This document shows, in pieces, positions 9,393 through 27,506 of a stretch of DNA of 64,000 nucleotides (within the stretch, counting starts at the first letter, position 1; the number at the start of each line of letters is the position of its first letter). Origin of the DNA: a virus (taxonomy: Duplodnaviria; Caudoviricetes); IMG/VR virus record IMGVR_UViG_3300044656_000027, positions 1 to 64,000 of that record; one strand, written 5' to 3'. The notes beneath the pieces were generated by a model. The model made no database searches. It worked only from the letters and a program-made list of their open reading frames with translations, and was not told the origin of the DNA. The position numbers were made by a program, and so were the translations under genes.

Positions 9393-9860
9393 TTAGGTGT
9401 TGTACTTGCCGTCTCTTTGCTCAACAGTAGCGCGAGAGGTACGTCTTGTCAACTCTCTAGATACTGCCTTACCGCACGCTTCTAGGTGGGTATAGAGGGA
9501 CTTTACCAGGATCTCATAGTTCTCACAAGTGTCCAGGTGATCCTCAGCTTCAATGTACTCAGGAGTCTGAGCTACAAGAGCCTTGGTCTCTGCCACTGTC
9601 TTGGCCTTGAGACGTACAGTAGCAGCATCACTGACTCTTTGCAAGACACGTGTGGCTTGACGAACAGCAATGGTGGCCTTTGCAACCTCATAACCGGCAT
9701 AACCAGTCCAACTGGTGAATTCGGAAAGAAGTTCCATTAGCTCAGGATCAGAAATTTCGGACAATCTTGCTGGTAGCTCCGGTTGGTCGTCGGATGGTCT
9801 GGCTGGTGCTCGTAGCCCCGTGCTCCCCAGTCCCCAACCGCTCTGTACTCTCTGGGCCAT
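9393..9860 (-). CDS. Helical protein, possibly a UvsY-like recombination mediator
   Basis: Start MAQRVQSGWG; coiled-coil character; next to an exonuclease and near recA; function inferred. Confidence 0.5.
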   Translation of the reverse strand: MAQRVQSGWGLGSTGLRAPARPSDDQPELPARLSEISDPELMELLSEFTSWTGYAGYEVAKATIAVRQATRVLQRVSDAATVRLKAKTVAETKALVAQTPEYIEAEDHLDTCENYEILVKSLYTHLEACGKAVSRELTRRTSRATVEQRDGKYNT

Positions 9861-10743
9861 AATTCTCACAATCTTTGCAAGTACCAGTAGGACATGCAGG
9901 GATAGGACCCCCGAAATCAAGTGCATTCGCAATTAGTCTCGCCATATCAATAATGGGGAAACTGTAATTGGGATCGTACTTAACTACGAATTCCTTTACT
10001 CCCTGATTAAACTTCGCTTCATAAATAAAGATGATGCGATCGTATGGAAGCCCCATCTCAGCGCACAGCGCGAGGTAGAGCTGCCCCTGACGCATGTGGG
10101 AGCTGAACGGCTCCTCAATGGCCTTCCAGAGCCCTTGTGGGTCTATCTTCTGACCTTCCGTATGGGCGTTGTAGATGTCAGGTGCCTCTATTCTAACCGT
10201 ACCCGCTCCCACGCTCTTAACCTCAATCAGAGCGCCCAAGTCTGGCACAGCGCCATCAGCATGTCCGGCAATTAGATACTGTTCATGTCGGAGAGGTACC
10301 TCGCGGTATATGAGAGTTCCAACAGTGTGGCAGTCGGGACACTTACTGGGAGAAAGGGTATCTCTAAAATAATGGGTACATGCAAGACATTCCCAATTGC
10401 CCCAAAGCTTTCCCATTTTCCATAGTCGCTTTTGCCACTTATCGTGAATGAGATGTCCTTCATCGAAGATGTTGAGGAGCTGTACCCCAATTTTCTCATC
10501 AGGCTTAAGATATGGGTTGTTGGAGTCTCGGCAAGTCTTGATTCGATAGTAGGTAGCACGTGGACACCAATTCTGCTTCGCCATTTCGGATGGATGGATA
10601 ATATCCTGTCGGCGAGTCGAAGGCTTTGAGTGTTCCTTCAACATATGAGCTTGAATGTCTCCCAGAAGGATAGTTCCCTTAGACGCGTTAGCCCAATCGC
10701 CTAGCTTTCCTTTCGCTTTTCCCCAGCCTCTTTGGATTGCCAA
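9748..10743 (-). CDS. Cas4-like PD-(D/E)xK exonuclease
   Basis: HPSE..WCPR, GHADG...IEVKS, QGQLY and C-terminal CxxxxCxxC; inserted Zn ribbon. Confidence 0.85.
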   Translation of the reverse strand: MAIQRGWGKAKGKLGDWANASKGTILLGDIQAHMLKEHSKPSTRRQDIIHPSEMAKQNWCPRATYYRIKTCRDSNNPYLKPDEKIGVQLLNIFDEGHLIHDKWQKRLWKMGKLWGNWECLACTHYFRDTLSPSKCPDCHTVGTLIYREVPLRHEQYLIAGHADGAVPDLGALIEVKSVGAGTVRIEAPDIYNAHTEGQKIDPQGLWKAIEEPFSSHMRQGQLYLALCAEMGLPYDRIIFIYEAKFNQGVKEFVVKYDPNYSFPIIDMARLIANALDFGGPIPACPTGTCKDCENYGPESTERLGTGEHGATSTSQTIRRPTGATSKIVRNF

Positions 10744-11048
10744 ATCTTTCTCTCTTTCCTTAGCTTGGCTCGTTCATCGGGCAGTAGTCCACCCCAAACT
10801 CCGTAGCGTTCATTGTTTACCATAGAGAATTCTAAGCAGGCTTCTAAGAGGGGGCAGGGTCGGCCATCGAGAGCGCCAGTGCATATATTCTTGGCGTCTT
10901 CCATCTCGTCATAGGCTTCCTCTTCCCCCTCTGTATCCCCGAACCACGGATCATAGTCCTTCGTGGCAGGGAATAACACACACTTAGCTGTCTTCTTAGT
11001 ATCGTCGCTAAACCATTGGGGAGCAACGCTACGCAGTTTCATTACCAA
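10701..11048 (-). CDS. whiB: WhiB-family Fe-S transcription factor
   Basis: Four Cys and YGVWGGL..ER; the CxxC is expanded to CTGALDGRPC. Confidence 0.88.
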   Translation of the reverse strand: MVMKLRSVAPQWFSDDTKKTAKCVLFPATKDYDPWFGDTEGEEEAYDEMEDAKNICTGALDGRPCPLLEACLEFSMVNNERYGVWGGLLPDERAKLRKERKIWQSKEAGEKRKES

Positions 11049-11358
11049 TTCCGGGACCTTCTCGTAGAGTCAGGTAATCATCGTATTGCATGATTACCCA
11101 TTTGTTTCCAGTACCCTGGAACTCTACCATAAAGATCGGAATTCGTCCATCCATAAGTGCATAGTCATAATTCTTCTGTAGGTCTGCATCCTTTAGCGAA
11201 TAGGATTTGGCTCCTGTTATCTTTGCCTCTACCAATTCGTATGCAGTCCGTATATCAGACTTACGAATCCATCCATTACCTGAACCAGAATTGACAAAGC
11301 CGGATAGCTCTTTGGCTATCCGGCGCTCTTGTCTCTGGCTGTCTTTCGTATCAGCCAT
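11029..11358 (-). CDS. Hjc-like Holliday junction resolvase (PD-(D/E)xK)
   Basis: SQRQERRIAKEL.G...SGSG...KSDI....LVEAK. Confidence 0.75.
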   Translation of the reverse strand: MADTKDSQRQERRIAKELSGFVNSGSGNGWIRKSDIRTAYELVEAKITGAKSYSLKDADLQKNYDYALMDGRIPIFMVEFQGTGNKWVIMQYDDYLTLREGPGIGNETA

Positions 11359-11705
11359 TAGTCTCCAATTAGAATACGCTGCACAATTACAGCAGACTTA
11401 TCCGCAAAGTGCTTGCGGTCATCATCGTTATACCACTGACCAGAAAGCTTGTCCAGAGTGACCGGAATCTTCTTAAGCAGCTTGGTCAGTGCCTCATCCT
11501 TCGTCAGAGGACCCTCAATGTCGCCAACCTCATGCAGGTCAAACGGAATGGGGCAGGAACAACCAGAATCGTGCGCCATGTAGAACTCGTTTGGACCAGC
11601 CATCCAAATAATGGTCTCGTCAAACTGCCAGTCCTCATAATCCCACTCCAGAATACCCAGCTCCGTCCAACCCATACGGTAAGCGTGGTCGAAGATGTAA
11701 GACAT
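11358..11705 (-). CDS. Hypothetical protein with DSGCSCP motif
   Basis: 115 aa, acidic; strong RBS. Confidence 0.65.
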   Translation of the reverse strand: MSYIFDHAYRMGWTELGILEWDYEDWQFDETIIWMAGPNEFYMAHDSGCSCPIPFDLHEVGDIEGPLTKDEALTKLLKKIPVTLDKLSGQWYNDDDRKHFADKSAVIVQRILIGD

Positions 11706-11720
11706 TATTCCTCCTATTGG

Positions 11721-11773
11721 TTAAGTAATCCATAACCGTTCTCCCTTTCGGGAGAGCGATTAAAGCTACTTAA
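11721..11773 (-). ncRNA. Conserved intergenic structured element, copy 2
   Basis: TTAAGTA-GCTT-TA-ATCGCTCTCCC-GAAA-GGGAGAACGGT-TA-TGGAT-TACTTAA. Confidence 0.8.
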
Positions 11774-12072
11774 TCAGCGATATAGATTCTATCGAGATCA
11801 TCGATAGGCTCATCAGGTTCACCGTGAAGAAGCCAGTAAATCACAGAGCGAAGCTCCGGACAACCTGACTGCTCACTACCACCCTGCGGGGCGCGTTGAT
11901 CTCCACTGACCAGCTTGTCAATGCTGAGACCATACTTGCAGTCGCAGTAACAATCCTGATCCATACGATGACCCATGTTATACACACAGATCCTACGACG
12001 TACAGCCTCAAGAGCCTGAGCAAGAGCCTCACGATCAGACTTTAGAAATCCATACGCAGGTTCGTTAATCAC
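11770..12072 (-). CDS. Hypothetical Cys-rich protein
   Basis: CVY..CDCKYG..GCPELR. Confidence 0.6.
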   Translation of the reverse strand: MINEPAYGFLKSDREALAQALEAVRRRICVYNMGHRMDQDCYCDCKYGLSIDKLVSGDQRAPQGGSEQSGCPELRSVIYWLLHGEPDEPIDDLDRIYIAD

Positions 12073-12341
12073 TTCTTACGTGCCCTCACTTCCTTGATGT
12101 CCTGGACCAGCTTGTAGATGTAGTATCCACCTAGTGTGACGGGCCAGGTTGCAATGATTGCTACTGTAAGCAAGAACTCCATCGTAGCACCGAGGGTACT
12201 ACCGTACAGCCATTGCCAATCCAGGTCAAGGGTATCAATCAACTTGATGTCATCGTTCCACGCGATGAGAGAAAACGATATGAGGACACCGACACCAAGG
12301 AAGTATAGTACCCCAAGGAATATCACGCAGCAACCTGCCAC
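12069..12341 (-). CDS. Small membrane protein
   Basis: Two hydrophobic helices. Confidence 0.55.
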   Translation of the reverse strand: MAGCCVIFLGVLYFLGVGVLISFSLIAWNDDIKLIDTLDLDWQWLYGSTLGATMEFLLTVAIIATWPVTLGGYYIYKLVQDIKEVRARKK

Positions 12342-12958
12342 TTGTGCAGATCATCGTTCTCCAGAAGCACCTTGTAGACTGCCTGAGCCTCGCGGAGCTG
12401 GACAACCATACCCTCAGCGTTGAACGCGTGCTCAACAGCGTTGGAGCCCTTGAGACGAAGCGTTTGCTTGAGACGAGTGATAGCACCCTGCTCAAAGTCT
12501 CCAGTGTAGAGGAGAGGAACAGTGCACAGCTCATGAACAGCAGTAGAGCCCGGCTGAACCTTAATGGTCTCCATCCACTTGGTAGCGTGGAACAGAGAGA
12601 ATCGCTTCTCACCCTTGGTCAGACCGTAGCCACGCTGGATACCAGAGCCCCACCACTCACCATAGTGATCACCAGGACCAAGAATATCCACGAGAGCCGT
12701 AGCGTTATCAAGAACCCATCCGGCAAAACCGAAGTTGTCCTCATTCTTAGTAGCCTTGAGGAAGCGAGAGCGAGACTGAACCCACACGTCATAAAGATAT
12801 CCAGCAGGATCGATAACAGTAGTGAGTCGTGCACTATTGTCCGGAAAGATTCCAGACGGACGAACACGAATAGCACTATTGGTACCGTCGATCTTCTCAG
12901 TGATCGTCATTCGCTCCTTAGACAGGCGCGGAATGCTGGGCCACTTCTGAAACTCCAA
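12323..12958 (-). CDS. RNA ligase (Rnl2-like adenylyltransferase domain)
   Basis: Motif I TEKIDGTN, QSRSR, YGEWWG.GIQ, FSLF, EGMVV and YK. Confidence 0.88.
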   Translation of the reverse strand: MEFQKWPSIPRLSKERMTITEKIDGTNSAIRVRPSGIFPDNSARLTTVIDPAGYLYDVWVQSRSRFLKATKNEDNFGFAGWVLDNATALVDILGPGDHYGEWWGSGIQRGYGLTKGEKRFSLFHATKWMETIKVQPGSTAVHELCTVPLLYTGDFEQGAITRLKQTLRLKGSNAVEHAFNAEGMVVQLREAQAVYKVLLENDDLHKWQVAA

Positions 12959-12979
12959 TTTATGCCTCCCGAATTAGTT

Positions 12980-13372
12980 TTACTGTGGTGTTAAGTATGG
13001 TGCAAGTACCTTGGTCAAGTCAACCGTTGATCCATAGGTGCTTGGAATCTGCACACCCTTGGTAATACGGTTGGCCATGTTGCTGACTTGCTCGATGATT
13101 GTATACGTGAAACCCTGTGGGAACAACTCAGTGTTGTCCGTGCAAGGTAAGGTGATGCTGAATGCACCAGACCCACCCGTGTTCGGTGAACCACCTTGTG
13201 TACCTGGTAGTACAGCAGTAAACGGAGTGATTGTCAAGAACTCGGAGTCTGTCTGGTCAGACAGGGATGGCACGCTCGGTACGAACTTTACCACCCCTGT
13301 CTCTCCCGCGCCACTGATGAAATTCACATACTTCCCAGTGACGATGATGGTCTTTCCACCAGTGATAGGCAT
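12980..13372 (-). CDS. Beta-rich protein resembling the N-terminal domain of actinophage tail-fibre/minor tail proteins
   Basis: Thr/Gly/Pro-rich; G.V.F.P...G.FSITLP.TD...L.P.GFTY.I.E pattern; TAAGGA RBS. Confidence 0.5.
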   Translation of the reverse strand: MPITGGKTIIVTGKYVNFISGAGETGVVKFVPSVPSLSDQTDSEFLTITPFTAVLPGTQGGSPNTGGSGAFSITLPCTDNTELFPQGFTYTIIEQVSNMANRITKGVQIPSTYGSTVDLTKVLAPYLTPQ

Positions 13373-13375
13373 AGG

Positions 13376-14413
13376 TTATTCCTTTGCGGTAGCGAAGTCA
13401 AGAGTCTTCTTGGTGATCTCTTCAAGTAGCTCTATGTTACCGCGTAGCTCCTCCACAATGGGGTTTGCACCCTGCCACTTGTAGTCTCCGTAGGAGTACC
13501 ACGAACCACCACGAGTGATGATCTTGTAGGAGATAGCCATAGTAATAACGTCACGTACTTTGTCGTAGTCGCCAGGCTTGAAGCCATTGGCAGTCTTATC
13601 AAAGTACATGTCAGCCGTCGCTGTACGACGCGGGGCACCAGCCTTGTTCTTTGTTACCTCAAACTTAACGCGCTGTCCAACGGCTACCTTTCCCTGTCCG
13701 TCTCTCGACTCATCAATGATCTCGTCAAGGGCTACCTTAATTCGCTGGTAGAACTGATAGTTCTTAGCCTTACCACCAGGCTCAGTCTTAGGTGTTCCGT
13801 ATGGAGAGAACCCACCAATCTTGTCACGGTACTGGTTGACAAAGAAACCAACATAAGGACGCTCATCGCTGAACGTATCCGGAATCTTACGGAAGAACTG
13901 CCCTACTCGTCTAGCTCCGCCACCAACGGTGAACCCTGACATGTCCTTCTCTTCTTCATCAGAAGCAATCATGGCAGGATATGAATCGATCACAATGCAA
14001 TCGTAAATATTAGCCTTAGCGGCATCAATAACGTTCTGGAAGCATAACTCCATGTTATTGTGCTCGAACACAGTAACACGGTCATTGTCTACGCCGCAAA
14101 GTGCAGCCCACTCAGGGTTATACGGCTCAGATGCTACCCAGTACACGGAATAATCAGGGTTCATTGCCTGATTAGTTGCAATGGTGTGGAGAATAGAGCT
14201 GGTCTTGGATGCGCTGGACTCTCCAACGATCTCAATCCAACGGTTAGCAGGCCAACCGCCACCTAACGCCACATCTAAGGAAAGAATTCCAGAGGACTGG
14301 CGTGGTGGAATGTAGATTTCGGACGCCATAATAAGGGGCTTTAAGCCAGCCTTAATTAGTTCCTTGTTCTTTGCAGCTTGGAACAGTCTTAACTTTTCGT
14401 GCTGATCAGACAC
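13376..14413 (-). CDS. recA: RecA recombinase
   Basis: SGILSLDVALGGGWP, variant Walker A GESSASKT, IVIDS, NQYRDKIG, PGGKA, KNK; GTG start 14413 (alternative ATG 14473). Confidence 0.93.
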   Translation of the reverse strand: MSDQHEKLRLFQAAKNKELIKAGLKPLIMASEIYIPPRQSSGILSLDVALGGGWPANRWIEIVGESSASKTSSILHTIATNQAMNPDYSVYWVASEPYNPEWAALCGVDNDRVTVFEHNNMELCFQNVIDAAKANIYDCIVIDSYPAMIASDEEEKDMSGFTVGGGARRVGQFFRKIPDTFSDERPYVGFFVNQYRDKIGGFSPYGTPKTEPGGKAKNYQFYQRIKVALDEIIDESRDGQGKVAVGQRVKFEVTKNKAGAPRRTATADMYFDKTANGFKPGDYDKVRDVITMAISYKIITRGGSWYSYGDYKWQGANPIVEELRGNIELLEEITKKTLDFATAKE

Positions 14414-14432
14414 GCATACCTCTTTCAAATAG

Positions 14433-14465
14433 AACGGGCTGGTAAGTATTACCCTACCAGCCCGG
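14433..14465 (-). terminator. Hairpin between nrdJ and recA
   Basis: CGGGCTGGTAGG-GTAATA-CTTACCAGCCCG followed by TTCTATTT. Confidence 0.6.
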
Positions 14466-14519
14466 TGTGACATTTGTCTAGTCTTCCTCGTACTACTCTC
14501 GCCAAGCGGTGTACTATTC

Positions 14520-16855: not shown

Positions 16856-17273
16856 TGTGTTCTCCGTATGTGATTAGCCCTCTTTGGAGCATGTGGGAAA
16901 CAACCGCTTCCGCAATCGCAGTTCCTAGTTTGTAATTGTGGAAACGGAACTTCATTTTATCCTCCTCGCTCAGTAATTTCATAGCGTCGTCACTATTAAT
17001 CAGAGCGTAAGAGGCTGCTTCCGATGCCATATAGCACAGGAAGGGGAAGTCCAAGCCAAAAGGCAGAAGGGAATTCTTTCGGCCCCACATTTCCCTAGCC
17101 TCTGCCTCAAGGACATCAAGGCTGGCAGGATTCTGGCCGAATCGAATTGGGTCCTTCTGCATTTTGATTGGACCGATCATATCCCATGTCATTGAACGGG
17201 ATATTTCCATGGCGAGCTGCTGTAGAGGCTCAATCTCCTCTACAGGCTCGACTTCTTCAAATGGATCGTACAT
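16839..17273 (-). CDS. Hypothetical protein
   Basis: 144 aa; TAATG-coupled to polA. Confidence 0.65.
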   Translation of the reverse strand: MYDPFEEVEPVEEIEPLQQLAMEISRSMTWDMIGPIKMQKDPIRFGQNPASLDVLEAEAREMWGRKNSLLPFGLDFPFLCYMASEAASYALINSDDAMKLLSEEDKMKFRFHNYKLGTAIAEAVVSHMLQRGLITYGEHNEFLG

Positions 17274-19366
17274 TAATCCTTCGCATCTGCCCAGTTGCTT
17301 ACTACAGCAATCTTCTCCCTAGTCATTGCCAGCGGTACCTTGATGAGATCCTGAATCTCTGCTCCAGACATAGCTTCCAGGAGCATTGCACAGCCCTCTT
17401 CGATCCTGTCATCAGGACACTGAATGACTAGCTCATCGTGCACAGACAGAATCATATGGATCTCTCGACCCGGATTCAGCTTGGCATCCTCTCGGGTAGC
17501 CTTGTGCATGCGAATCATCGCAAGCTTGATGATATCACCAAGTGATCCCTGAACCAAAGAGTTGATGACCTGTCGCTCTCCACGTGCCAACACCGAACGA
17601 ACAGCACTGCTGTGACGCTCAGGCTCATACCACGGGAGGTTAACGGCTTCCTGCTCTGCAATACGGGGAACAATTTCCCACACACGACGCTTACGCCCAA
17701 GGATGGTACGAATGAACGGAGTTCCATTGCGCCCGCGCTTCTGCGCAAGAGCAACAATCTTATCCTTCCATTCATAAATCTCTGGGAATGCAATTCGGTG
17801 GTCATCGAGAAGCTTATTAGCCTCTTCCACTGTAATATTCAGCGTCTTCGCAATCTTAGGAGCCTGAGCACCATAAACAATAGCGAAGTTCAGAGTCTTG
17901 GCTGCATCTCGCATCCACTTCTCTACATCTGCAACAGCTACACCGAAGACCAGCGCTGCTGTCTGAGTGTGTGCGTCAATCCCTGCATGGAAACCATCGT
18001 AAAGACCACCATACCCAATCATGGAGGCAAGGACTCGAAGCTCCATCTGTGCGTAGTCAGCCACAAGGAACTTATATCCCTCAGGCGGAGCGAACAGACC
18101 ACGGACCTTCTTACCCAGCTCAGTCTTGGGTGCAGGAATGTTCTGGAGATTAGGTTCACGGGAAGAGAAACGTCCAGTCAGAGTACCGTACTGCACCAGG
18201 TCAGTAAAGATACGACCATCGAAGATACGACACGGCTTCTTATCGTTGCCTTCCACTCCCAGATATCCGTACACATATGTACTCAGGAGCTTATTGACTT
18301 CTGCATAAGCCAGTAGCGCATCAACTACTGGATTACCTTCGAATGACTTTAGTGACTCTGCATCCGTGGAGTAATCCAGAATGGTCAGCTCTTCGTGCCT
18401 CTGCTTTTTCTTCTTCCCGCCGTCAGTCAGCTTGAAAGGCTTTAGTCCCTGACCACCTTCCTTCTTAGGTCCATAAAGGATCTCGCATTTCTGCTGAGAG
18501 GAGTTGATATTGAACAGCTTTCCAGCCGCACGATATACATTTGCCTCAAGAACTTCCAGCCGTGCAGAGAGATCCTTCTCCAGATCCAGAATCGCCTGAA
18601 CGTCCACAGGAGCCCCGATGACACGCATCTGGGAGCAGACCTCAGTCACCTGGTTTTCGAGCCCCAGAATGGCCTCTACGTCCTCCTGAGACACCATCTG
18701 ACGGAACTTGCGGTAGAGCAGCCAGTCCTTACGAACGTCATAGAGAAGATAGCGAGCCACCTTGATGAACTCGTGCTTCTCAATGCACTTACCAACCTCT
18801 TCCTTGTCGTAATCGACACCGAAGTACCACTTGGTAAGGACCTTGAGACCCTTGTTCATCGGACGCTTACGCCATCCATAGGTGAACTCACCAATGTTCT
18901 CATCGATACCCCACTGCATGACAATGGTGTCGGTGTACGGGCCACAGGGGATGTCTCCAAAGCCGTCGTACATTGACGCAGCATCAAAGGTTTCACTGTG
19001 AGCAATCTTAATGATCTCAGGATGGAAGAACAGCGGACGCAGGATCTCGTAGACCACAGAGGGCTTGAGCTGAGTCGGAGGAGCATCAAAGGTCGGAGGG
19101 AAATTCTCGAACTTCCCTGTCTCCTTATTCTTCTTCCGGTATTCCTTCTTTAGAAGTACATTTCCATTAGGGTGTCCCATGGGAATGACAATAGAGCGAC
19201 CATAAGTAGCCAACCCAATCCACACCACTCGGTTCCGTGCCGGAACACCTCGCGTATCTGGTTCACTGCCATCCATTGTTTCTACGTCGAATACAAATGC
19301 ATCCTGCTTGAGGAAATAAGCAACCTCTTCCTTAAGACGCTTAGCGTCTAGGATAATCTCTTCCAT
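17273..19366 (-). CDS. polA: Family A DNA polymerase with 3'-5' exonuclease
   Basis: FDVET, TGRFSSREPNLQNIP, motif A ADYAQMELR, motif B R..AKTLNFAIVYG, motif C VHDE. Confidence 0.96.
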   Translation of the reverse strand: MEEIILDAKRLKEEVAYFLKQDAFVFDVETMDGSEPDTRGVPARNRVVWIGLATYGRSIVIPMGHPNGNVLLKKEYRKKNKETGKFENFPPTFDAPPTQLKPSVVYEILRPLFFHPEIIKIAHSETFDAASMYDGFGDIPCGPYTDTIVMQWGIDENIGEFTYGWRKRPMNKGLKVLTKWYFGVDYDKEEVGKCIEKHEFIKVARYLLYDVRKDWLLYRKFRQMVSQEDVEAILGLENQVTEVCSQMRVIGAPVDVQAILDLEKDLSARLEVLEANVYRAAGKLFNINSSQQKCEILYGPKKEGGQGLKPFKLTDGGKKKKQRHEELTILDYSTDAESLKSFEGNPVVDALLAYAEVNKLLSTYVYGYLGVEGNDKKPCRIFDGRIFTDLVQYGTLTGRFSSREPNLQNIPAPKTELGKKVRGLFAPPEGYKFLVADYAQMELRVLASMIGYGGLYDGFHAGIDAHTQTAALVFGVAVADVEKWMRDAAKTLNFAIVYGAQAPKIAKTLNITVEEANKLLDDHRIAFPEIYEWKDKIVALAQKRGRNGTPFIRTILGRKRRVWEIVPRIAEQEAVNLPWYEPERHSSAVRSVLARGERQVINSLVQGSLGDIIKLAMIRMHKATREDAKLNPGREIHMILSVHDELVIQCPDDRIEEGCAMLLEAMSGAEIQDLIKVPLAMTREKIAVVSNWADAKD

Positions 19367-19373
19367 TATCTCC

Positions 19374-19916: not shown

Positions 19917-20615
19917 TTACTTAGTGTCCTTGTTGTAGGACAGACCCTCAGCGATCTCAGCCACCTTGCTCGGAGTATTGATGAACACAGTCTCCTCACC
20001 ATAGCAACGAGTCTGCGCCTCTTCAATCTCAGAGTCAGTCATCGGAATGATGCCGAACTCCTCTTCCACCATGCTGCGGTTCAGCGGGACAACAGTCACA
20101 CCATTACCACGAACGTACATGAGCTGGAAGTAACGACGCGGGTCATTGAGATCCATCTTCTCCATGTAACCCTGGAGAGCACGTGCAACCGGGAAGGTAA
20201 AGTCCCAGACCTTGACAGTCCAACCGTCCTCAGTAGCAGAGTTGGGGTCACTCATCTCAACAACGTTGATACGGTAGACCTCAGCCGCCTTGTAGTTCTT
20301 GGCGCACAGCGGGCAGTTGCCACCGTGGCAGTAGATCGGAGGACGACCCGGAATAAAGTGACGACGCCAACGAGCCACAGGCTCATCATCGAGAATCTTG
20401 ACGATCTTGTCACCAGACTGCTTGCCGAAGTCGATGTAAGGAGCCTTGACAGTCTCACGGCGCTCCTCAGTCTCACCAGCAGAGCCCCAACCCTTGCTCA
20501 CCTTACGGGTAACAGAAGGGCGAACGGGAGTCTCGTCGTAAGACTCCTGAGTGTTCTCCTCGTAGGAGTCCTCAGTGTTCTCGTCAACAACAGCAGTGCG
20601 GGTAATCTTAGCCAT
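19917..20615 (-). CDS. Phage single-stranded DNA-binding protein (gp32-like)
   Basis: Acidic N-terminus; RHF...C.GG.CPLC Zn site; replication context; strongly biased codons. Confidence 0.75.
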   Translation of the reverse strand: MAKITRTAVVDENTEDSYEENTQESYDETPVRPSVTRKVSKGWGSAGETEERRETVKAPYIDFGKQSGDKIVKILDDEPVARWRRHFIPGRPPIYCHGGNCPLCAKNYKAAEVYRINVVEMSDPNSATEDGWTVKVWDFTFPVARALQGYMEKMDLNDPRRYFQLMYVRGNGVTVVPLNRSMVEEEFGIIPMTDSEIEEAQTRCYGEETVFINTPSKVAEIAEGLSYNKDTK

Positions 20616-20670
20616 AAATATTTCTCCTAGTTAGTTTGGCACTTACGCCGATATCAGGAATTAGTTGGAA

Positions 20671-21365: not shown

Positions 21366-21372
21366 TTATTCC

Positions 21373-21879: not shown

Positions 21880-22240
21880 TACTCTCCTTGTTGAATACAT
21901 CGTCAAAACTACCGTGATCCTTACGCTTTGCCCCAGACATCCAAGGCTTTAGGAGCATACCATCGATGTAGTCCTTGGGGCTAGGCAGCCAACCAAGATC
22001 CTCTTCTATGTGCTGCTCTGCAATAAGTCGCACAGGAACTTCCTTGCGGCCAACCTGGAGTACCTTACCAAAGATTTGCTGGCAAAGGAAGACCCCCAGT
22101 GTGTGGTGATACAGACTACGATGCCGAGCGTCACCGATTACCTGCTTGGACGAATCAATAAATTCATGAATGGCAAGGTAATCTTCTGGAGTACCACCCC
22201 ACTTATGCGCACTAGACTTAGCGTGGTACCAGGAATTCAC
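21872..22240 (-). CDS. DUF6915-like His-rich protein
   Basis: HAKSS..KWGG.PEDY..IH.F.D.SK....D.RHR...HH..G and AEQHI.ED.G..PS..D. Confidence 0.8.
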   Translation of the reverse strand: MNSWYHAKSSAHKWGGTPEDYLAIHEFIDSSKQVIGDARHRSLYHHTLGVFLCQQIFGKVLQVGRKEVPVRLIAEQHIEEDLGWLPSPKDYIDGMLLKPWMSGAKRKDHGSFDDVFNKESNG

Positions 22241-22449
22241 AGAGAATACAGCTCCTTGAGGTAGTTACGCTCATCCTTGTACTCCTTGTGGAGCATCTTG
22301 AAATGCTTGTACAGACGCTCAGTGAAATCCCAGTCCACCATCATGGCGTCAAGGTCAACGATGAACTCGAACAGAGCATCATCATCTCGCGTCTGGATCA
22401 GTGCGTCAAGCACATCAGCAGGGTCAATAGCAACATTCAGGTCCAGCAT
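22237..22449 (-). CDS. Hypothetical protein
   Basis: MLDLNV start behind GAGGAG. Confidence 0.55.
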   Translation of the reverse strand: MLDLNVAIDPADVLDALIQTRDDDALFEFIVDLDAMMVDWDFTERLYKHFKMLHKEYKDERNYLKELYSL

Positions 22450-22451
22450 TC

Positions 22452-22763
22452 TTACTCCTCTTCGAAATACTTGTACAGGTAAAATCCGTCTACCAACTTG
22501 ATGTCGTCCACCAGCATCCATGGACTGTAGGCTAGGTTATAACCTCCGTTACCAGAGCGCAACTCATCGAATACCTCTCGGCATTTGATGATGTAATAGC
22601 GCTCCTTGTCCTCAGGGTCCAACCAAGTGTGTACAATCTCTACACGAATAGAGTTGTAGGTGGTTTCAAAGCTATTATTGAACATCGAATCCACTTCATA
22701 AAGTGGAATGTCATAGGGCACTGACGGGAGTCCATTCATACTTGACAACAGGAAGCTTGACAA
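22452..22763 (-). CDS. Hypothetical protein
   Basis: ORF within the operon; true start probably downstream of 22763. Confidence 0.5.
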   Translation of the reverse strand: MSSFLLSSMNGLPSVPYDIPLYEVDSMFNNSFETTYNSIRVEIVHTWLDPEDKERYYIIKCREVFDELRSGNGGYNLAYSPWMLVDDIKLVDGFYLYKYFEEE

Positions 22764-22998
22764 CCTCTACAGCTTCAATTACATCTGCGTCGTACCAAAG
22801 ATCTTCGCCTTCCTGGTATTCAGTAGCACCTTGCTGCCATTGAACTTGGTAATGCTTCTTCTCGTACTCGAAGACACCCTCATAATGCACTGCCCAACGG
22901 CTGGTGTCAATGATTGTCTCATCGATACAGTTGTCAGGAATCTCCAACTCTTCTAGAAGATCCCTGTGGAATTCACGAGTAACTAGTTTAGTAACCAT
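22711..22998 (-). CDS. Hypothetical protein
   Basis: DTSRW and GATEYQ motifs typical of small phage proteins. Confidence 0.65.
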   Translation of the reverse strand: MVTKLVTREFHRDLLEELEIPDNCIDETIIDTSRWAVHYEGVFEYEKKHYQVQWQQGATEYQEGEDLWYDADVIEAVEVVKLPVVKYEWTPVSAL

Positions 22999-23311
22999 AC
23001 AGATCCCTTTCTAGACACCATGCCCAAGCCTCATAGGGGTCACACTCTTTATGCCCCATCATGCCACATATCTGTCCACATTCTCCACAATGGTAATGGG
23101 ACTCACCAGCGTAATCATCTGTGCAGCAAATGTCACAATAATCGTAGTCTTCATCCTCGTAGTAGTGCTCTTCCTCCTCTTCCTCAACCTCAGGGTTCAG
23201 GAGACGAAGCATAGCATCTGCTTCCAATCTTGCCAAGCGCTCATTGCGCTCATCAATCTTCTTCTGTTCTGCGTCTTCTTCACAATAGATACAGCGACAT
23301 TCGTCGTACAT
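22988..23311 (-). CDS. Acidic Cys/His-rich protein
   Basis: CRCIYC, CDICC, HCGECG..CGMMGH; poly-Glu tract. Confidence 0.6.
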   Translation of the reverse strand: MYDECRCIYCEEDAEQKKIDERNERLARLEADAMLRLLNPEVEEEEEEHYYEDEDYDYCDICCTDDYAGESHYHCGECGQICGMMGHKECDPYEAWAWCLERDLYGY

Positions 23312-23322
23312 TATTACCTCCT

Positions 23323-23374
23323 CTAATTATCCATAGCTACCTCCCTTTTCAGGGAGATAACTAAAGCTAATTAG
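23323..23374 (-). ncRNA. Conserved intergenic structured element, copy 3
   Basis: CTAATTA-GCTT-TA-GTTATCTCCCT-GAAA-AGGGAGGTAGC-TA-TGGA-TAATTAG. Confidence 0.8.
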
Positions 23375-23802
23375 CGACGACCCGAGCGAGAACCACCGCT
23401 CGAACCAAAGCCACTACGCGGACCAGAACCGTAGCGAGTACCGCCACCACCTGCACGGCAAGAGTTGCAGCCCTGAACCTTGTAGCCACGCGAAGTGGAC
23501 ACCATACCAGATCCCAGACGCGGACGACCAACCGTGACACCCTTTGGCACAGTCACGTGAATGTGCAACGGGTTAGCGTACAGGTAGGTGTGGGAACGGT
23601 AGTAAGTGGGAGAAACATAGACCAGTCGCGGAGACGGGTACTCAACCCACACGTGCGTGGTGCTGTAGTAACCGTACTCATACTCAGCGATGTTACCGCT
23701 GTCGTCGTTGGTGTAGTTGTCTCCCTGACCATCACAGGCAACCGCTCCGCTGAGAACAGCCAGAGCCAGGACCGTGCTAGCGAGCGCCTTGCCAACCTTC
23801 AT
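23371..23802 (-). CDS. Lipoprotein with Tyr-rich core and Gly/Arg-rich tail
   Basis: Signal peptide with lipobox-like AVA-C; tail GGGGTRYGSGPRSGFGSSGGSRSGRR. Confidence 0.75.
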   Translation of the reverse strand: MKVGKALASTVLALAVLSGAVACDGQGDNYTNDDSGNIAEYEYGYYSTTHVWVEYPSPRLVYVSPTYYRSHTYLYANPLHIHVTVPKGVTVGRPRLGSGMVSTSRGYKVQGCNSCRAGGGGTRYGSGPRSGFGSSGGSRSGRR

Positions 23803-23814
23803 TGCTACTCCTTA

Positions 23815-24024
23815 TTAGATGCCGAGTTCCTGTATGAACAAATCTTTGTCGCCAAAGTCGTGCATTTGGTACCCAATGTAGAGGTTAACTTCGTTCCCCT
23901 CTGGCTTTGCGTAGACAGCATATCCATCTGCGCTAGCTTCGTCAAGCAGTTCACCAAGGACTGTTGCCCATTGCTCTAACGATCGGAAGGCCACCATTAC
24001 TCCTTCGTAGGTAGGAAGCTCCAT
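23815..24024 (-). CDS. Hypothetical protein
   Basis: 69 aa. Confidence 0.5.
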   Translation of the reverse strand: MELPTYEGVMVAFRSLEQWATVLGELLDEASADGYAVYAKPEGNEVNLYIGYQMHDFGDKDLFIQELGI

Positions 24025-24440
24025 GTGACGGTAGTGTCAAAGAAGCTGTCGAGCTCTTCCTGAGTGAGCATATCATTGACGAACATTTCCCACAACCCGT
24101 CCTGATCAACTTCCCAGGTCTGGTGCAGAACCTTGATGCCGTTCACCATACCATCCTTACGTCCGGCTGATGTGCACTCAAGGATATATTCAATGACGCG
24201 TTCCTCGTTGAGTACCTTACTCTCCTTGCGGACTCTTTGCAAGCCCTTGTACTTCTGGCCGAAGACCTCTAGTGGCTCTTCGAACCCGATCACGAGTGAT
24301 CCTCTCGCATTAGGCTCTGCGTTGTCAAGGTAGGGAGCTAGCTGCTCCTTCACGGCTTCCTGCTGTGCCTTGGCATCCTTGATCTCCTGAGCCAGAAGAA
24401 GATACTTGCCAGTCATGGCCTTTACTACTGCATCATCCAT
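23997..24440 (-). CDS. Hypothetical protein with N-terminal coiled coil
   Basis: 147 aa; coupled to the helicase gene. Confidence 0.6.
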   Translation of the reverse strand: MDDAVVKAMTGKYLLLAQEIKDAKAQQEAVKEQLAPYLDNAEPNARGSLVIGFEEPLEVFGQKYKGLQRVRKESKVLNEERVIEYILECTSAGRKDGMVNGIKVLHQTWEVDQDGLWEMFVNDMLTQEELDSFFDTTVTWSFLPTKE

Positions 24441-25992
24441 TTAAATAGTCCTTAAGGAATTTGGTTAGGCTAGTGACGTCATTGTCTAAATTACCAGCAC
24501 GGTCTGACAATCCAGTTAAAACCGCACTTGATACTCTGCCTTTATAGGCAAGTCTTTGTTGTTGATATTCTTCAATGCTTCCTTTGACCAAGAGATTGTC
24601 AATGTAGACGTGCCGAAACTTAGAATTAGCTCTGACGTGTCGCCCGTTTCGCTGTTTAAGTGCTCCCGAAGAGTCTGGGAGATTGAAGTTGATAAGGTGC
24701 GAAGCTGCGTAAAGATCAACTCCGTATCCTCCTGCGTCAGAGGATAGAAATAGCCTGCAATCACTATCGTTTGTAAATCGGGAGATAGCCTCTCCACGTT
24801 GTCTTCCATTTAAATCTCCTGAAAATAGAACAGGATTGTATTCTTTTAATTCCTTTTCAAGCATAGGAAGAATTCCCTTGTACTTTGAAAAGACAATTAC
24901 TTTATGAGAGCTATTTGCTTTTAAATATTCCTCTGCCAATTCAACGCACGCTTCAAGCTTCGGACCCACTGAGAGCCCTCTGAGGGCATCAAGGAGTCCT
25001 GCGGCGTACTTACTACCTCCGTCGTCTCCTGACTCGTTGTAGCGTTCTCCAGAGGCTCTGAGCAGCGTTGGAGAAGAGAGGAGTAGTTGCGCTGCACCAA
25101 GTCTCGATCCGATAGGCCCAAGTTGATGGTCAGATCCACCTTGCCTTCCTCCAGAATAGTGCGCATCAAGGTCAATACTTGCTCTGTCTCCAGCGGAGTA
25201 GAGAACGTCCAAGAGGTCTCGGGCGATCCGTCGATAGACCAAGTCAATGTCGTCATCCATTTCTACATAGCAATTGTATTCTTCTACTGTTGGCATGAAT
25301 TCAGCTACGTCTTTATCATCTCTACGCTTCACAAAACACGCAGTAAGGAATTGCTTATTCAATTCAGGTACATTTCTATATCCTGTAATGATTCCTGCTG
25401 AATTCCTCTTGATGTAATTCAATTCAAAGTCACGCCAGTTACCAAAGACAGAGCGATCAATCCACTCCATGATGGAGAACATTTCCTCTGCCTTACCATT
25501 CTCAATCGGCTCGGCGGTTAAGCCAATACGATAGGTTGACTTCAACTTCTTTATAGCTTTGGTCTGCTGTGTGGAGAAGTTCTTTATCGACGTAACTTCG
25601 TCTACTAGAACTAAATCGGGAGCCATACCAATTATCAAGTCTATGTTTTGGACCACTTGCCGGATTCCCATAATCAAGTATTCCGGCGTATGTTCCATAG
25701 CGTTGCTTAATATATTCGAGCGCTTCGTAGGTGTCAGAGATCCATCCACTAACACCACGCTCTCCGAATCCGTAAACTGGTGGATTCGTTCTACCCATTG
25801 AGCCGTCAGGCTGCTGCTCATTATCAGGAGTGCGCATTTCACCTTTCCTTGTGCTCGCAACTCTTCAATGGCTGCGATAGATACGACTGTCTTTCCTGTC
25901 CCTAGGTCCAACGCAAGCAGGGCGCTTCCACGATTAAGTAGAAACGCCCTGGCTTGATCTTGATAGGGCCGTAATTCTCCAAGAAAACTCAT
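24433..25992 (-). CDS. SNF2-like SF2 helicase
   Basis: LRPYQ, DLGTGKT, VDEV, GLTAEP, SSDAGGYGVDL and QRNGR. Confidence 0.92.
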   Translation of the reverse strand: MSFLGELRPYQDQARAFLLNRGSALLALDLGTGKTVVSIAAIEELRAQGKVKCALLIMSSSLTAQWVERIHQFTDSESVVLVDGSLTPTKRSNILSNAMEHTPEYLIMGIRQVVQNIDLIIGMAPDLVLVDEVTSIKNFSTQQTKAIKKLKSTYRIGLTAEPIENGKAEEMFSIMEWIDRSVFGNWRDFELNYIKRNSAGIITGYRNVPELNKQFLTACFVKRRDDKDVAEFMPTVEEYNCYVEMDDDIDLVYRRIARDLLDVLYSAGDRASIDLDAHYSGGRQGGSDHQLGPIGSRLGAAQLLLSSPTLLRASGERYNESGDDGGSKYAAGLLDALRGLSVGPKLEACVELAEEYLKANSSHKVIVFSKYKGILPMLEKELKEYNPVLFSGDLNGRQRGEAISRFTNDSDCRLFLSSDAGGYGVDLYAASHLINFNLPDSSGALKQRNGRHVRANSKFRHVYIDNLLVKGSIEEYQQQRLAYKGRVSSAVLTGLSDRAGNLDNDVTSLTKFLKDYLNG

Positions 25993-25999
25993 GCTCGGT

Positions 26000-26008
26000 A
26001 TCTTAGCA
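26000..26008 (-). promoter_or_regulatory. Extended -10 promoter, probably giving a leaderless helicase mRNA
   Basis: TGC-TAAGAT 7 nt before the ATG; no SD. Confidence 0.5.
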
Positions 26009-26020
26009 GAGATTTCGCTT

Positions 26021-26452
26021 CTAAGCCAGTAGTGCAGGCCGATATGTCTTTAGGATTTCTATAGCCCACTCAATTTTATCTTCCACACGTTGACCAGATG
26101 GCTGGGAGCGAGACCACAGCTCAAGATTTTCTATACGGTTATCTAATCTATCGCCATTCTTGTGATGGACATTTTCGTTAGCCAGTAATGGTCTGCCTAA
26201 GTGCTTAGACATTACTAAAACATGCTCTAGAATTTGTCCATCTTTTCTAGCATTAGGATGGTCACTGTGATTGGGTATAACCAGATATCCGTTACTCGTC
26301 TTATACGGCTTACCTGCTCCCTTATCTGCTATTAGTTTTATATTAGGATCACCGTGGGTCAAGTTACGCACGTAATGTTTACGACACCAACCTTTAGCGT
26401 AGTGCTTTATATCGCAGATAGAACAGGTTTTATTTGATTTAGGTCTTGGCAT
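26021..26452 (-). CDS. HNH endonuclease (free-standing)
   Basis: CSIC..HYAKGWC..HY; EH.LVM..HLGR.L...ENVHHKNGDRLDNRIENLEL. Confidence 0.92.
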   Translation of the reverse strand: MPRPKSNKTCSICDIKHYAKGWCRKHYVRNLTHGDPNIKLIADKGAGKPYKTSNGYLVIPNHSDHPNARKDGQILEHVLVMSKHLGRPLLANENVHHKNGDRLDNRIENLELWSRSQPSGQRVEDKIEWAIEILKTYRPALLA

Positions 26453-26505
26453 GACAAACTCTCTGCTAGATTACTTTTATAAAAGTATAGCAGAGAGTTT
26501 GTCAT
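26451..26505. repeat. Inverted repeat covering the HNH translation start
   Basis: 18-bp perfect arms ATGACAAACTCTCTGCTA/TAGCAGAGAGTTTGTCAT plus inner TACTTTT/AAAAGTA. Confidence 0.9.
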
Positions 26506-26513
26506 TTATGGGA

Positions 26514-27506
26514 CTATCTATATCTAAGGATAGATTTCGCTTCTAGGATAGCCCTCTGTATTTCGTTATCACTTACTCCATCAGTGCCAAGATCCTTGGC
26601 GTCTGGAATGTGATCGTAATTAGCAAAGCGAATTCTACGACCACTCTTTAGGAACTTCTGCCTAAGCTCCAATGACTTCTTTATTCCAGCTTCGTCATTG
26701 TCAAGAGCAAAGATGACTACCTCAGCGTAGTCGAATAGAAGTTCCAACTGTCTATCCGAGACCTGTACACCGAAGCTGGAAACGGCTCCGTCAAGTCCGG
26801 CAGTGTACAACCGTAGACAGTCAAGAGGACTCTCTACCAGAATCAGGGTTGTACCTCTGAGACAGTGCAGTCCGAAGAGTGTATCACCCTTCTGAACTTG
26901 GCTGGGCTTGTTGGATACCCAGCCTTTCCCCTTCTCTTGATAGCCCAAGAACTTACCAGATTCATCTCTGATTGGCAAGATCCAACGGCTATTCTCTGTG
27001 TCCCAAAGGACACCGTAATGGCTTACACTTCCCGAAGAAAGCCCTCGCTGTTGAAGCTCTTCGTCCGGCGGATCAGTGAAGAGCGCCAGTCTAGCTTCGT
27101 TCCACGCTCGTAGCCCCTGTTCTGGCTGCTCACGGTCAGCGGAAACTCCCAAAGCTCTACGAAGTCGTTGAACTCCACCGCGACGACGGACCCATGACTC
27201 TGCGTCTGAACGGTCATAACCAAGAACCTCCTGCACTAGAGTACCGAATGAACCACGGAAACCACAACTGAAACAGGAATGTTGACCTGTCTCAAGATTT
27301 ACAGACCACTTATTCGGGTGCTGATTGGGCTTACCCAATCTTTTGAGATGGCCTGGACAGTACGCCCAAGCCTCTCCATGAACTACTCTGACTACTTGTA
27401 TGTTGAGTTCCAACAAACAAGATAGTACATCACCAGGGGCGGCTTGTCCACCCCCGTTACCCCAACCCTTAGTAATACTGGTCGAAGTCGTCCGTCTCGT
27501 CGCCAT
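26514..27506 (-). CDS. DNA primase (Zn-binding + TOPRIM)
   Basis: CPGH...CFSCG; LVESPLD; ALDNDEAG; KD; start estimated at MATRR. Confidence 0.9.
   Translation of the reverse strand: MATRRTTSTSITKGWGNGGGQAAPGDVLSCLLELNIQVVRVVHGEAWAYCPGHLKRLGKPNQHPNKWSVNLETGQHSCFSCGFRGSFGTLVQEVLGYDRSDAESWVRRRGGVQRLRRALGVSADREQPEQGLRAWNEARLALFTDPPDEELQQRGLSSGSVSHYGVLWDTENSRWILPIRDESGKFLGYQEKGKGWVSNKPSQVQKGDTLFGLHCLRGTTLILVESPLDCLRLYTAGLDGAVSSFGVQVSDRQLELLFDYAEVVIFALDNDEAGIKKSLELRQKFLKSGRRIRFANYDHIPDAKDLGTDGVSDNEIQRAILEAKSILRYR

What the first reader, a model, noticed from the sequence alone, without database searches (positions are those of the whole stretch)
9831..27467. Shared [K/R/S]GWG peptide in the N-terminal tails of four unrelated replication/recombination proteins
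Seen: primase SITKGWGNG (27459-27467), SSB KVSKGWGSA (20484-20492), Cas4-like exonuclease AIQRGWGKA (10720-10728) and the UvsY-like protein RVQSGWGLG (9831-9839). The pattern [IV]-x-[KRS]-G-W-G lies in frame, ahead of the folded domain, in all four. In three of them the N-terminal extension overlaps the upstream gene, which suggests it is kept at a cost. Inference: a phage-specific short linear motif docking these proteins on one hub (DnaB, PolA, RecA, a host factor or SSB itself), analogous to clamp-binding or SSB-tail motifs. The DNA is also similar (GG[T/C]TGGGG), so a nucleic-acid signal is an alternative.
Basis: partly seen in the sequence, partly recalled or inferred. Interest (0 to 1): 0.7.

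Follow-up and report, generated by a model that had tools for sequence, protein, structure and literature searches.

The report
Shared Gly-Trp docking tag on replication proteins
A large Streptomyces-type phage puts the same short Gly-Trp peptide on the floppy front ends of its DNA-coating protein, primase, a nuclease and a recombination helper; related phages keep it, so it is very probably a shared docking tag, though its binding partner is still unknown.

Summary
All four GWG sites are in frame, ahead of the folded domain and downstream of usable start codons.

- **Conservation.** The motif is kept in about 20 BRock-like phages at 30-60% protein identity. The conserved core is G-W, not [K/R/S]GWG.
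- **Peptide, not DNA.** The Gly codons use all four synonyms.
- **UvsY-like protein.** Its N-terminal extension overlaps the Cas4-like gene by 113-134 nt. Substitutions there are mostly synonymous in the UvsY frame and mostly not in the Cas4 frame, so it is translated. GenBank annotations of the orthologues miss it.
- **Folds.** The SSB folds like T4 gp32. The small protein folds like T4 UvsY.
- **Origin.** G-W sits at a fixed distance before the zinc site in 90% of 153 representatives of this SSB family. Primase, UvsY-like and Cas4-like proteins carry it only in some lineages, so it looks ancestral in the SSB and copied onto partners.

Best reading: the tag docks on one shared site. The SSB core is the likeliest site, as in gp32 self-association; the family A polymerase is next. 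No binding was tested. This is a new variant of a known kind.

The parts
19917..20615 (-). gp32-like zinc/OB-fold SSB gene; start ATG 20615
   Evidence: AGGAG lies before the ATG. The AlphaFold model has mean pLDDT 80. Its top PDB matches are the RB69 and T4 gp32 cores, probability 1.0, E 4e-5. His86, Cys96, Cys101 and Cys104 are conserved.
20484..20492 (-). G42-W43-G44 in the disordered N-terminal tail of the SSB
   Evidence: G42 is invariant and W43 nearly so in a tail that otherwise does not align, across 19 sequences. G-W is present in 138 of 153 family representatives, 28-45 residues before the zinc-ligand His.
26514..27506 (-). DnaG-type primase gene (zinc ribbon plus Toprim); start ATG 27506 (27512 also possible)
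   Evidence: Pfam Toprim_2 E 1.5e-12; PHROG 47. GAGGA lies before the ATG, and there is no in-frame start between the motif and the conserved PGDV. Annotated orthologues also overlap dnaB by 26 nt.
27459..27467 (-). G-W-G at residues 14-16 of the primase, immediately after the dnaB-like stop
   Evidence: G-W (R-W in GiJojo and pSt2308) lies a few to about 14 residues before P[IV]PGDV in about 25 primases, including some at only 40-46% identity.
9748..10743 (-). Cas4-family exonuclease gene; start TTG 10743
   Evidence: PHROG 2506 exonuclease, E 1e-44. A TTG or ATG lies 3-7 codons before GWG in 18 of 19 loci. The stretch GWGPKLTGRLA.YANASKGT is conserved, so ATG 10644 is internal.
10720..10728 (-). 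G-W-G at residues 6-8 of the Cas4-like protein, inside the overlap with whiB
   Evidence: Conserved in all 19 BRock-like loci. This includes two loci where whiB ends before the motif. It is absent in the more distant high-GC and low-GC groups.
9393..9860 (-). UvsY-like recombination mediator gene with its full N-terminal extension; start ATG 9860
   Evidence: Model mean pLDDT 86: tail 1-13 is disordered, the linker at residues 21-37 is confidently modelled without helix or strand, then a helical hairpin follows. Nine of the top ten PDB matches are T4 UvsY, TM 0.39-0.74 (0.57-0.74 for the best chains), but E is only 0.09-0.2. P22, P27, L29 and P30 are invariant across 16 sequences.
9831..9839 (-). 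G-W-G at residues 8-10 of the UvsY-like protein, inside the overlap with the Cas4-like gene
   Evidence: M-A-x-R...[IV]-Q-x-G-W-[G/L] is found in 20 loci. In the overlap, substitutions are mostly synonymous in this frame and non-synonymous in the Cas4 frame.
27469..28734 (-). DnaB-like helicase gene; the last 38 nt also encode the primase N-terminus in another frame
   Evidence: Pfam DnaB_C E 3e-18. It has an acidic C-terminal tail ending in aromatic residues.
10701..11048 (-). WhiB-family regulator gene; its 3' end is overlapped by the Cas4-like start
   Evidence: Pfam Whib E 6e-11; stop at 10701-10703.
17273..19366 (-). Family A DNA polymerase gene, a candidate alternative docking partner
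   Evidence: Pfam DNA_pol_A E 1.4e-86. It is a candidate only by analogy with the prediction for phage TG1 (PMC11795197).

Best explanation
**What it is.** A short linear peptide motif with core Gly-Trp. It usually follows a Ser, Lys or Arg and sits in a flexible N-terminal tail.

**Where it belongs.** Its home is the N-terminal tail of the phage's gp32-like single-strand DNA-binding protein, about 40 residues before the zinc-ligand His. In BRock-like phages, copies also sit within the first 6-16 residues of the primase, the Cas4-like exonuclease and the UvsY-like recombination mediator.

**Shown here.**
- The motif is translated.
- It is selected at the protein level.
- It is nearly universal in the SSB family.
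- It is present in the partner proteins only in some lineages.

**Inferred mechanism.** The Trp is an anchor that docks in one shared pocket. The likeliest pocket is on the SSB core, so that SSB molecules hold each other on ssDNA, as the N-terminal region of T4 gp32 does. The primase, nuclease and mediator would then carry a copy of that handle to dock on, or break into, SSB-coated ssDNA.

**Confidence by tier.** About 0.8 that this is a real protein-level docking motif. About 0.4 that the pocket is on the SSB core.
For: 1. **All four sites are conserved.** They hold in 5 GenBank and 15-30 IMG/VR relatives, inside tails that are otherwise variable.
2. **Gly codons vary freely**.
3. **The Cas4/UvsY overlap evolves as UvsY coding sequence.** Synonymous:non-synonymous counts are 11:3 vs 2:12 (L003/L004), 7:0 vs 0:7 (L012/L013) and 7:1 vs 2:6 (L006/L007). 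The extension also keeps invariant Pro and Leu positions at 28-34% identity.
4. **Start codons lie just upstream** of the Cas4 and UvsY motifs in nearly all loci.
5. **The SSB is gp32-like**, and G-W is found in 90% of 153 representatives at a fixed spacing.
6. **Lineage pattern**. In the high-GC group, SSB has KGWGSY, primase has GWDA[VI] and UvsY-like has GWEAV. In the low-GC group only the SSB has IQ[ST]GW.
7. **Joint loss in one genome.** In G001 the SSB has GGFDSF, the primase has PGYDNL, and the UvsY-like and Cas4-like proteins have no Trp.
8. **Precedents.** The gp32 N-terminus binds the neighbouring core near helix 141-152 (PMC11551737). The N-tail of the gp32-like SSB of Streptomyces phage TG1 is predicted to bind another SSB copy and the family A polymerase through F4, L6 and W7 (PMC11795197).
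9. **T4 gp32 has a positional equivalent.** G22-F23 lies 41 residues before His64, and the F/Y is kept in all 112 close relatives that could be assessed.
Against: - No binding was tested, and no multimer model could be run.
- The AlphaFold monomer gives only pLDDT of about 62 at the motif, so a docked pose is neither supported nor excluded.
- In T4 the self-association element is an alpha-helix in residues 1-21. The fragment that keeps G22-F23 has lost cooperativity, so the positional equivalent in T4 is not sufficient for self-association (PMC11551737).
- Residues flanking G-W do not clearly co-vary between the proteins of one genome. The joint loss of Trp rests on a single lineage.
- One genome (G005) keeps G-W in the SSB and a Trp in the UvsY-like and Cas4-like tails, but has none in the primase.
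- The within-genome statistic is modest.
Confidence: 0.45

Rival explanations
1. It is the same kind of docking tag, but the shared pocket is on another replisome protein. Candidates are the family A polymerase (17273-19366), the DnaB-like helicase or the RecA-like recombinase. The tag would gather the SSB, primase, nuclease and mediator around that protein.
For: For the gp32-like SSB of phage TG1, an AlphaFold virtual pull-down predicted that the N-tail binds a family A polymerase as well as another SSB copy (PMC11795197). Here polA lies directly downstream of ssb. The primase has no C-terminal helicase-binding domain (330 aa), so it needs some other link.
Against: In the low-GC group only the SSB carries the motif. 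That fits a self-contact at least as well as a polymerase contact. Nothing here points to one particular partner.
Confidence: 0.22
2. The motif is a small ssDNA-contacting arm. A Trp between flexible Gly residues, next to Lys/Arg, would stack on bases. All four proteins work on ssDNA and each uses it directly, with no protein partner.
For: All four carriers act on ssDNA. Basic residues often precede the motif, and in many SSBs a second aromatic follows (GWGSY, GWDGY). Lys-Trp-Lys stacking on ssDNA is classical chemistry (my own knowledge, not checked here).
Against: A single Trp in a disordered tail would add little affinity to proteins that already have full DNA-binding domains. The basic Ser/Thr flank of the primase is largely a by-product of reading the acidic dnaB tail codons in another frame. 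The strict spacing to the SSB core suggests a defined protein contact.
Confidence: 0.12
3. The tag is a signal for turnover or processing, for example recognition by a protease or chaperone, or cleavage that exposes an N-terminal Trp. It would tune the levels of these proteins together.
For: Three of the four copies lie within 6-16 residues of the N-terminus. That is where degradation signals usually sit.
Against: In the SSB the motif lies 35 to more than 100 residues from the N-terminus, but at a fixed distance from the core. No phage protease is linked to it. Nothing was tested.
Confidence: 0.05
4. It is a nucleic-acid signal (GGNTGGGG in DNA or mRNA), or simply chance combined with over-long ORF calls.
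For: The DNA word is similar at the four sites. An apparent fifth case, RSGW before the DnaC-like loader, did turn out to be Shine-Dalgarno sequence read as protein.
Against: The word is not enriched (10 vs 6.6). Both Gly codons use all four synonyms, and the second position can be N, S, A, L, D or E. W is replaced by F or Y in some SSBs. The overlap evolves as coding sequence in the motif's frame. The motif is conserved across about 1000 SSB clusters.
Confidence: 0.03

Closest known systems
[quoted passage not shown]
   Same: The SSB fold is the same (zinc-bearing OB core). Both have a flexible N-terminal segment ahead of the core. In T4 that segment binds the neighbouring core (PMC11551737). 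T4 also has a conserved aromatic, G22-F23, at the same spacing from the zinc-ligand His.
   Different: The T4 element is a basic alpha-helix (the LAST motif region), not a Gly-Trp turn. T4 partner proteins are recruited by the acidic C-terminal A domain. This SSB has no such domain; its acidic stretch is N-terminal. No T4 partner is known to copy the N-terminal element.
N-terminal tail of the gp32-like SSB (RDF gp25) of Streptomyces phage TG1 (PMC11795197)
   Same: It is a gp32-like SSB of a Streptomyces phage with a disordered N-terminal tail. A Trp-containing patch in that tail is predicted to bind both another SSB copy and the family A polymerase.
   Different: The motif differs (F4, L6, W7 at the very N-terminus). 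The protein is too distant for BLAST to link it to this family. The TG1 result is a prediction only, and no sharing of the motif with other replication proteins was reported.
Bacterial SSB C-terminal tip (…DDDIPF) and the T7 gp2.5/gp4 acidic C-terminal tails
   Same: The logic is the same: a short peptide on a floppy tail, with an aromatic anchor, connects several replication and recombination proteins to one surface.
   Different: Those tags are C-terminal and acidic, and they need the free carboxyl end. This one is N-terminal or internal, neutral to basic, and anchored by Trp next to Gly.
RAD51 FxxA polymerisation motif copied by the BRCA2 BRC repeats
   Same: It is the proposed working principle: a partner carries a copy of the filament protein's own self-association peptide.
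   Different: The proteins and the domain of life are unrelated. Here the mimicry is inferred, not shown.

Membership tests
Shared docking peptide of replication proteins (SSB-Ct / T7 acidic-tail type) | Short conserved peptide in a disordered tail, outside the folded domain | tested here: met
   pLDDT is below 50-62 around the motif in the SSB and UvsY-like models. The motif is conserved while the rest of the tail is not.
Shared docking peptide of replication proteins (SSB-Ct / T7 acidic-tail type) | Same peptide on several unrelated replication/recombination proteins of one genome | tested here: met
   Four proteins carry it in BRock-like phages and three in the high-GC group.
Shared docking peptide of replication proteins (SSB-Ct / T7 acidic-tail type) | C-terminal, acidic, ending in a hydrophobic residue with a free carboxylate | tested here: not met
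   The motif is N-terminal or internal and neutral to basic.
Shared docking peptide of replication proteins (SSB-Ct / T7 acidic-tail type) | Demonstrated binding to a common partner surface | not testable with these tools
   No multimer prediction or binding assay was available.
gp32-type SSB (T4 gene 32 protein) | OB fold with an inserted zinc site (His plus three Cys) | tested here: met
   Foldseek hits 2A1K, 1GPC and 8GME with probability 1.0 and E from 4e-5 to 6e-4. H86, C96, C101 and C104 are conserved. The Pfam gp32 model does not match at E 0.01.
gp32-type SSB (T4 gene 32 protein) | N-terminal element that mediates cooperative self-association | tested here: inconclusive
   A conserved G-W lies in the N-tail at the T4 G22-F23 spacing. 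No function was tested.
gp32-type SSB (T4 gene 32 protein) | Acidic C-terminal A domain that recruits partners | tested here: not met
   The C-terminus is short and not acidic. The acidic run is at residues 11-28 of the N-tail.
T4 UvsY recombination mediator | Small helical-hairpin fold | tested here: met
   Nine of the top ten PDB matches are UvsY chains; TM is 0.39-0.74 and rmsd 2.7-3.0 A for the best chains. E-values are weak (0.09-0.2), as is usual for helical hairpins.
T4 UvsY recombination mediator | Sequence membership (profile match) | tested here: not met
   There is no Pfam, PHROG or PDB sequence match.
Cas4/RecB-like PD-(D/E)XK exonuclease | Profile match, plus one N-terminal and three C-terminal cluster cysteines | tested here: met
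   PHROG 2506 E 1e-44 and PHROG 1706 E 2e-14. The Cys motifs are seen directly in the sequence. There is no Pfam match at E 0.01.
Argonaute-hook GW/WG repeats | Multiple GW/WG repeats in one disordered protein that bind Argonaute PIWI pockets | tested here: not met
   Each protein has a single copy. No search for an Argonaute was made. This family was considered only as a name-alike.

The most novel reading that the evidence does not exclude
The Gly-Trp peptide is the handle by which this whole family of gp32-like SSBs self-associates on ssDNA. The primase, the UvsY-like mediator and the Cas4-like nuclease have each copied that handle, written into gene overlaps, so that they can dock on or pry open the SSB filament. 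This would be mimicry of a cooperativity peptide, in the manner of BRC repeats and RAD51. The conserved G22-F23 of T4 gp32 would then be the same anchor, so far unrecognised.
Probability: 0.3. Interest if true: 0.8.

Novelty: new variant of a known kind. Interest (0 to 1): 0.62.

Why it matters
How proteins gain access to SSB-coated ssDNA is a central question in replication and recombination. Phage systems (T4, T7) supplied the paradigms, and all of them use acidic C-terminal tails.

This case differs in four ways:
- The tag is N-terminal and anchored by Trp.
- It is near-universal in a family of more than 1000 clusters of gp32-like SSBs from uncultured phages. Those examined here resemble actinobacterial phages.
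- In some lineages the primase, the mediator and a nuclease also carry it.
- In two of these genes the motif itself lies inside a gene overlap, and in the third it follows one directly.

The hypothesis is directly testable with W-to-A mutants, peptide binding and a multimer screen. The work also corrects gene starts in five published Streptomyces phage genomes. It further suggests an experiment in T4 itself, on gp32 F23.

Tried and rejected
- **Fifth carrier rejected.** RSGW upstream of the DnaC-like loader (ORF 31531-32352) is Shine-Dalgarno sequence read as protein. The real start is downstream, as in GiJojo and pSt2308.
- **Other GW sites in the replication module** (HJ resolvase, dnaB tail and others) lie inside domains or are not conserved.
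- **DNA/RNA signal rejected**.
- **Sequence searches against PDB** with SSB and UvsY-like profiles found nothing useful.
- **Literature searches** for a GW or GWG motif in phage or SSB proteins found nothing.
- **Co-variation could not be extended.**
  - IMG/VR scans with two SSBs that have F/Y in place of W found nothing.
  - The one metagenome scan gave mostly short contigs without neighbouring genes.
- **Column-association test not attempted.** Comparing W-type with F/Y-type SSB cores was dropped. The F/Y variants are few and sit on long branches.
- **Within-genome co-variation of the flanking residues** was looked for and is weak. Only one lineage (G001) shows joint loss of Trp.

Full report
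**Setting**

The window is the first 64 kb of a 111,289-bp single-contig phage genome with about 48% G+C. Its replication and recombination genes all lie on the minus strand. They are syntenic with Streptomyces phages BRock, Alone3, LuckySocke, GiJojo and pSt2308, at about 30% (SSB) to 57% (primase) protein identity.

Gene identities:
- DnaB-like helicase 27469-28734, Toprim primase and WhiB regulator.
- Cas4-family exonuclease.
- RecA 13376-14473, family A polymerase 17273-19366, SNF2 helicase 24433-25992 and ThyX 8161-9000.

**Observation**

GWG is read at exactly the four stated places, in frame with the long ORFs. Usable starts lie upstream of each motif:

| Gene | Start | Upstream signal | Overlap with upstream gene |
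|---|---|---|---|
| SSB | ATG 20615 | AGGAG | none |
| Primase | ATG 27506 | GAGGA | 38 nt (dnaB-like) |
| Cas4-like | TTG 10743 | purine-rich stretch | 43 nt (whiB) |
| UvsY-like | ATG 9860 | weak | 113 nt (Cas4-like) |

Within this genome alone the evidence is modest:
- Four proteins have GWG in their first 60 residues, against 1.06 expected, and about 0.8% of shuffles reach four.
- GW alone is not enriched.
- The DNA word GGNTGGGG is not enriched.

**Conservation**

BRock, Alone3, GiJojo and pSt2308 carry the motif in frame at all four places. This includes sites upstream of the annotated starts of the Cas4 gene (BRock, Alone3) and of the small downstream gene (all four annotated records examined). 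Fifteen IMG/VR relatives show the same for Cas4 and the small gene. Further loci show it for the SSB and the primase.

The invariant part is G-W. The next residue can be G, N, S, A, L, K, D or E, and GiJojo/pSt2308 primase has R-W-G. The Gly codons on both sides of TGG use GGT, GGC, GGA and GGG in every family. Selection is therefore on the peptide, not on DNA or RNA.

**Are the extensions translated?**

*UvsY-like gene.* The stretch from the conserved ATG (M-A-Q-R...) to the Cas4 stop is 110-134 nt in 20 loci. Between close pairs, substitutions there are mostly synonymous in the UvsY frame and non-synonymous in the Cas4 frame:

| Pair | UvsY frame (syn:non) | Cas4 frame (syn:non) |
|---|---|---|
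| L003/L004 | 11:3 | 2:12 |
| L012/L013 | 7:0 | 0:7 |
| L006/L007 | 7:1 | 2:6 |

Further points on this gene:
- The Cas4 tail behaves almost like a non-coding frame.
- The extension keeps invariant Pro and Leu positions down to 28% identity.
- In the closer relatives the Shine-Dalgarno sequence and the ATG are written into the conserved Cys-motif codons of Cas4.

*Cas4-like gene.*
- A TTG or ATG lies 3-7 codons before GWG in 18 of 19 loci.
- The following 20 residues are conserved.
- In two loci whiB ends before the motif, so whiB is not what conserves it.

*Primase.*
- No in-frame start lies between the motif and the universally conserved P-x-P-G-D-V.
- The region evolves as coding sequence.
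- The basic Ser/Thr-rich flank of the primase tail is largely the acidic dnaB tail read in another frame.

**What the carriers are**

- *SSB.* The model (mean pLDDT 80; tail 1-34 disordered, about 62 at the motif) matches the RB69 and T4 gp32 cores with probability 1.0.
- *Small protein.* The model (pLDDT 86) has a disordered tail bearing GWG, a confidently modelled Pro-rich linker without helix or strand, and a helical hairpin. Nine of its top ten PDB matches are T4 UvsY, with weak E-values.

With the RecA-like protein, this gives a T4-style SSB/recombinase/mediator set.

**Where the motif belongs**

A profile of the SSB finds 1046 cluster representatives. Of 153 assessable ones:
- 138 have G-W, 28-45 residues (median 40.5) before the zinc-ligand His.
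- 5 have G-F or G-Y.
- 6 have a Trp in the tail without a preceding Gly. Only three of these sit at the motif's place (K-W, S-W, A-W), and one of the six also carries G-Y there.
- 4 have none.

The F/Y variants are scattered on the tree.

In 80 IMG/VR loci with flanks:
- A high-GC group has SSB KGWGSY, primase GWDA[VI] and UvsY-like GWEAV, but no motif on Cas4.
- A low-GC group has IQ[ST]GW on the SSB only, and its primase has no tail.
- In one genome (G001) the SSB has GGFDSF, the primase has PGYDNL, and the other two proteins have no Trp.

So the motif looks ancestral in the SSB and was added to partner proteins in some lineages.

**Mechanism**

*Shown:* a conserved, translated, peptide-level motif on flexible tails of proteins that act on ssDNA.

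*Inferred:* it docks by its Trp on a shared surface. I favour the SSB core, for these reasons:
- The SSB is the universal carrier.
- The N-terminus of gp32 binds the neighbouring gp32 core (PMC11551737).
- The N-tail of the gp32-like SSB of Streptomyces phage TG1 is predicted to bind another SSB copy, and also the family A polymerase, through F4, L6 and W7 (PMC11795197).
- T4 gp32 has G22-F23 41 residues before His64, with the F/Y kept in all 112 close relatives that could be assessed.

*Caveats:*
- The cooperativity element of T4 is a helix in residues 1-21, and the fragment that keeps F23 is non-cooperative.
- Flanking residues do not clearly co-vary within genomes.
- The joint loss of Trp is a single case.
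- Nothing was bound to anything.

The rivals are a polymerase or helicase hub, direct ssDNA stacking, and a turnover signal. They are scored separately.

**Known or new**

Shared docking tails on phage replication proteins are established for T4, T7 and the bacterial SSB C-terminal tip. An N-terminal Gly-Trp version was not found in the searchable literature. Nor was its spread across this SSB family, or its copying onto primase, mediator and nuclease through gene overlaps. I verified those sites myself.

**Limits**

- No multimer modelling was available.

Noticed in passing
window 9393-9860 (-); L001 23603-24088, L002 23361-23846, L003 38877-39362, L004 38391-38876: GenBank annotations of the UvsY-like gene start about 40 codons too far downstream. 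This affects BRock gp66, Alone3 gp162 ('SSB protein'), GiJojo gp151 ('DNA binding protein') and the pSt2308 orthologue. The conserved, selected N-terminal extension is left out. The annotated Met (M42 here) is itself nearly invariant, so a second, short isoform is possible.
   Followed up: partly
L001 22810 and L002 22532 (annotated Cas4 starts) versus window 10743: The BRock and Alone3 Cas4 genes are annotated from a downstream start. GiJojo and pSt2308 use the upstream start that includes GWG. In pSt2308 the primase is annotated only as an 87-residue C-terminal piece (L004 20658-20918), although the full frame is open.
   Followed up: partly
window 27469-27530 (-): The DnaB-like helicase ends in a long acidic tail that finishes with aromatic residues (…DDFDQYY). 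BRock ends in F and Alone3 in Y. This resembles the T7 gp4/gp2.5 acidic tails and may be a second docking tag. The same DNA read in another frame gives the basic N-terminus of the primase.
   Followed up: no
window 9748-9860 (-): The last 37 or so codons of the Cas4-like gene, after its final Cys motif, evolve almost without protein-level constraint. They behave as a passenger frame over the UvsY-like N-terminus.
   Followed up: yes
window 27432-27452 (-): Just after the primase GWG, the sequence GGGGTGG-ACAAG-CCGCCCC can form a 7-bp hairpin followed by a T-rich stretch, inside the coding region. I saw it only in this genome and did not fold or compare it.
   Followed up: no
window 26021-26452 (-): A small ORF lies between the primase and the SNF2 helicase, at the place where GiJojo carries an annotated HNH endonuclease (gp115). 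BRock and Alone3 have no gene there. This looks like a mobile insertion. The window ORF itself was not searched against any family.
   Followed up: no
loci L099, L105, L107 (IMG/VR): In this lineage the WhiB-type C-terminal motif (G[IV]WGG.TERER) and the Cas4-like protein lie in one open frame with no stop between them. They may form a WhiB-Cas4 fusion, or be merely adjacent in frame.
   Followed up: no
phages collection: Among 50,697 sequenced phage records, only the six BRock-like Streptomyces phage records carry this SSB family. Metagenomes hold more than 1000 clusters of it, so the family is almost unrepresented in culture.
   Followed up: partly
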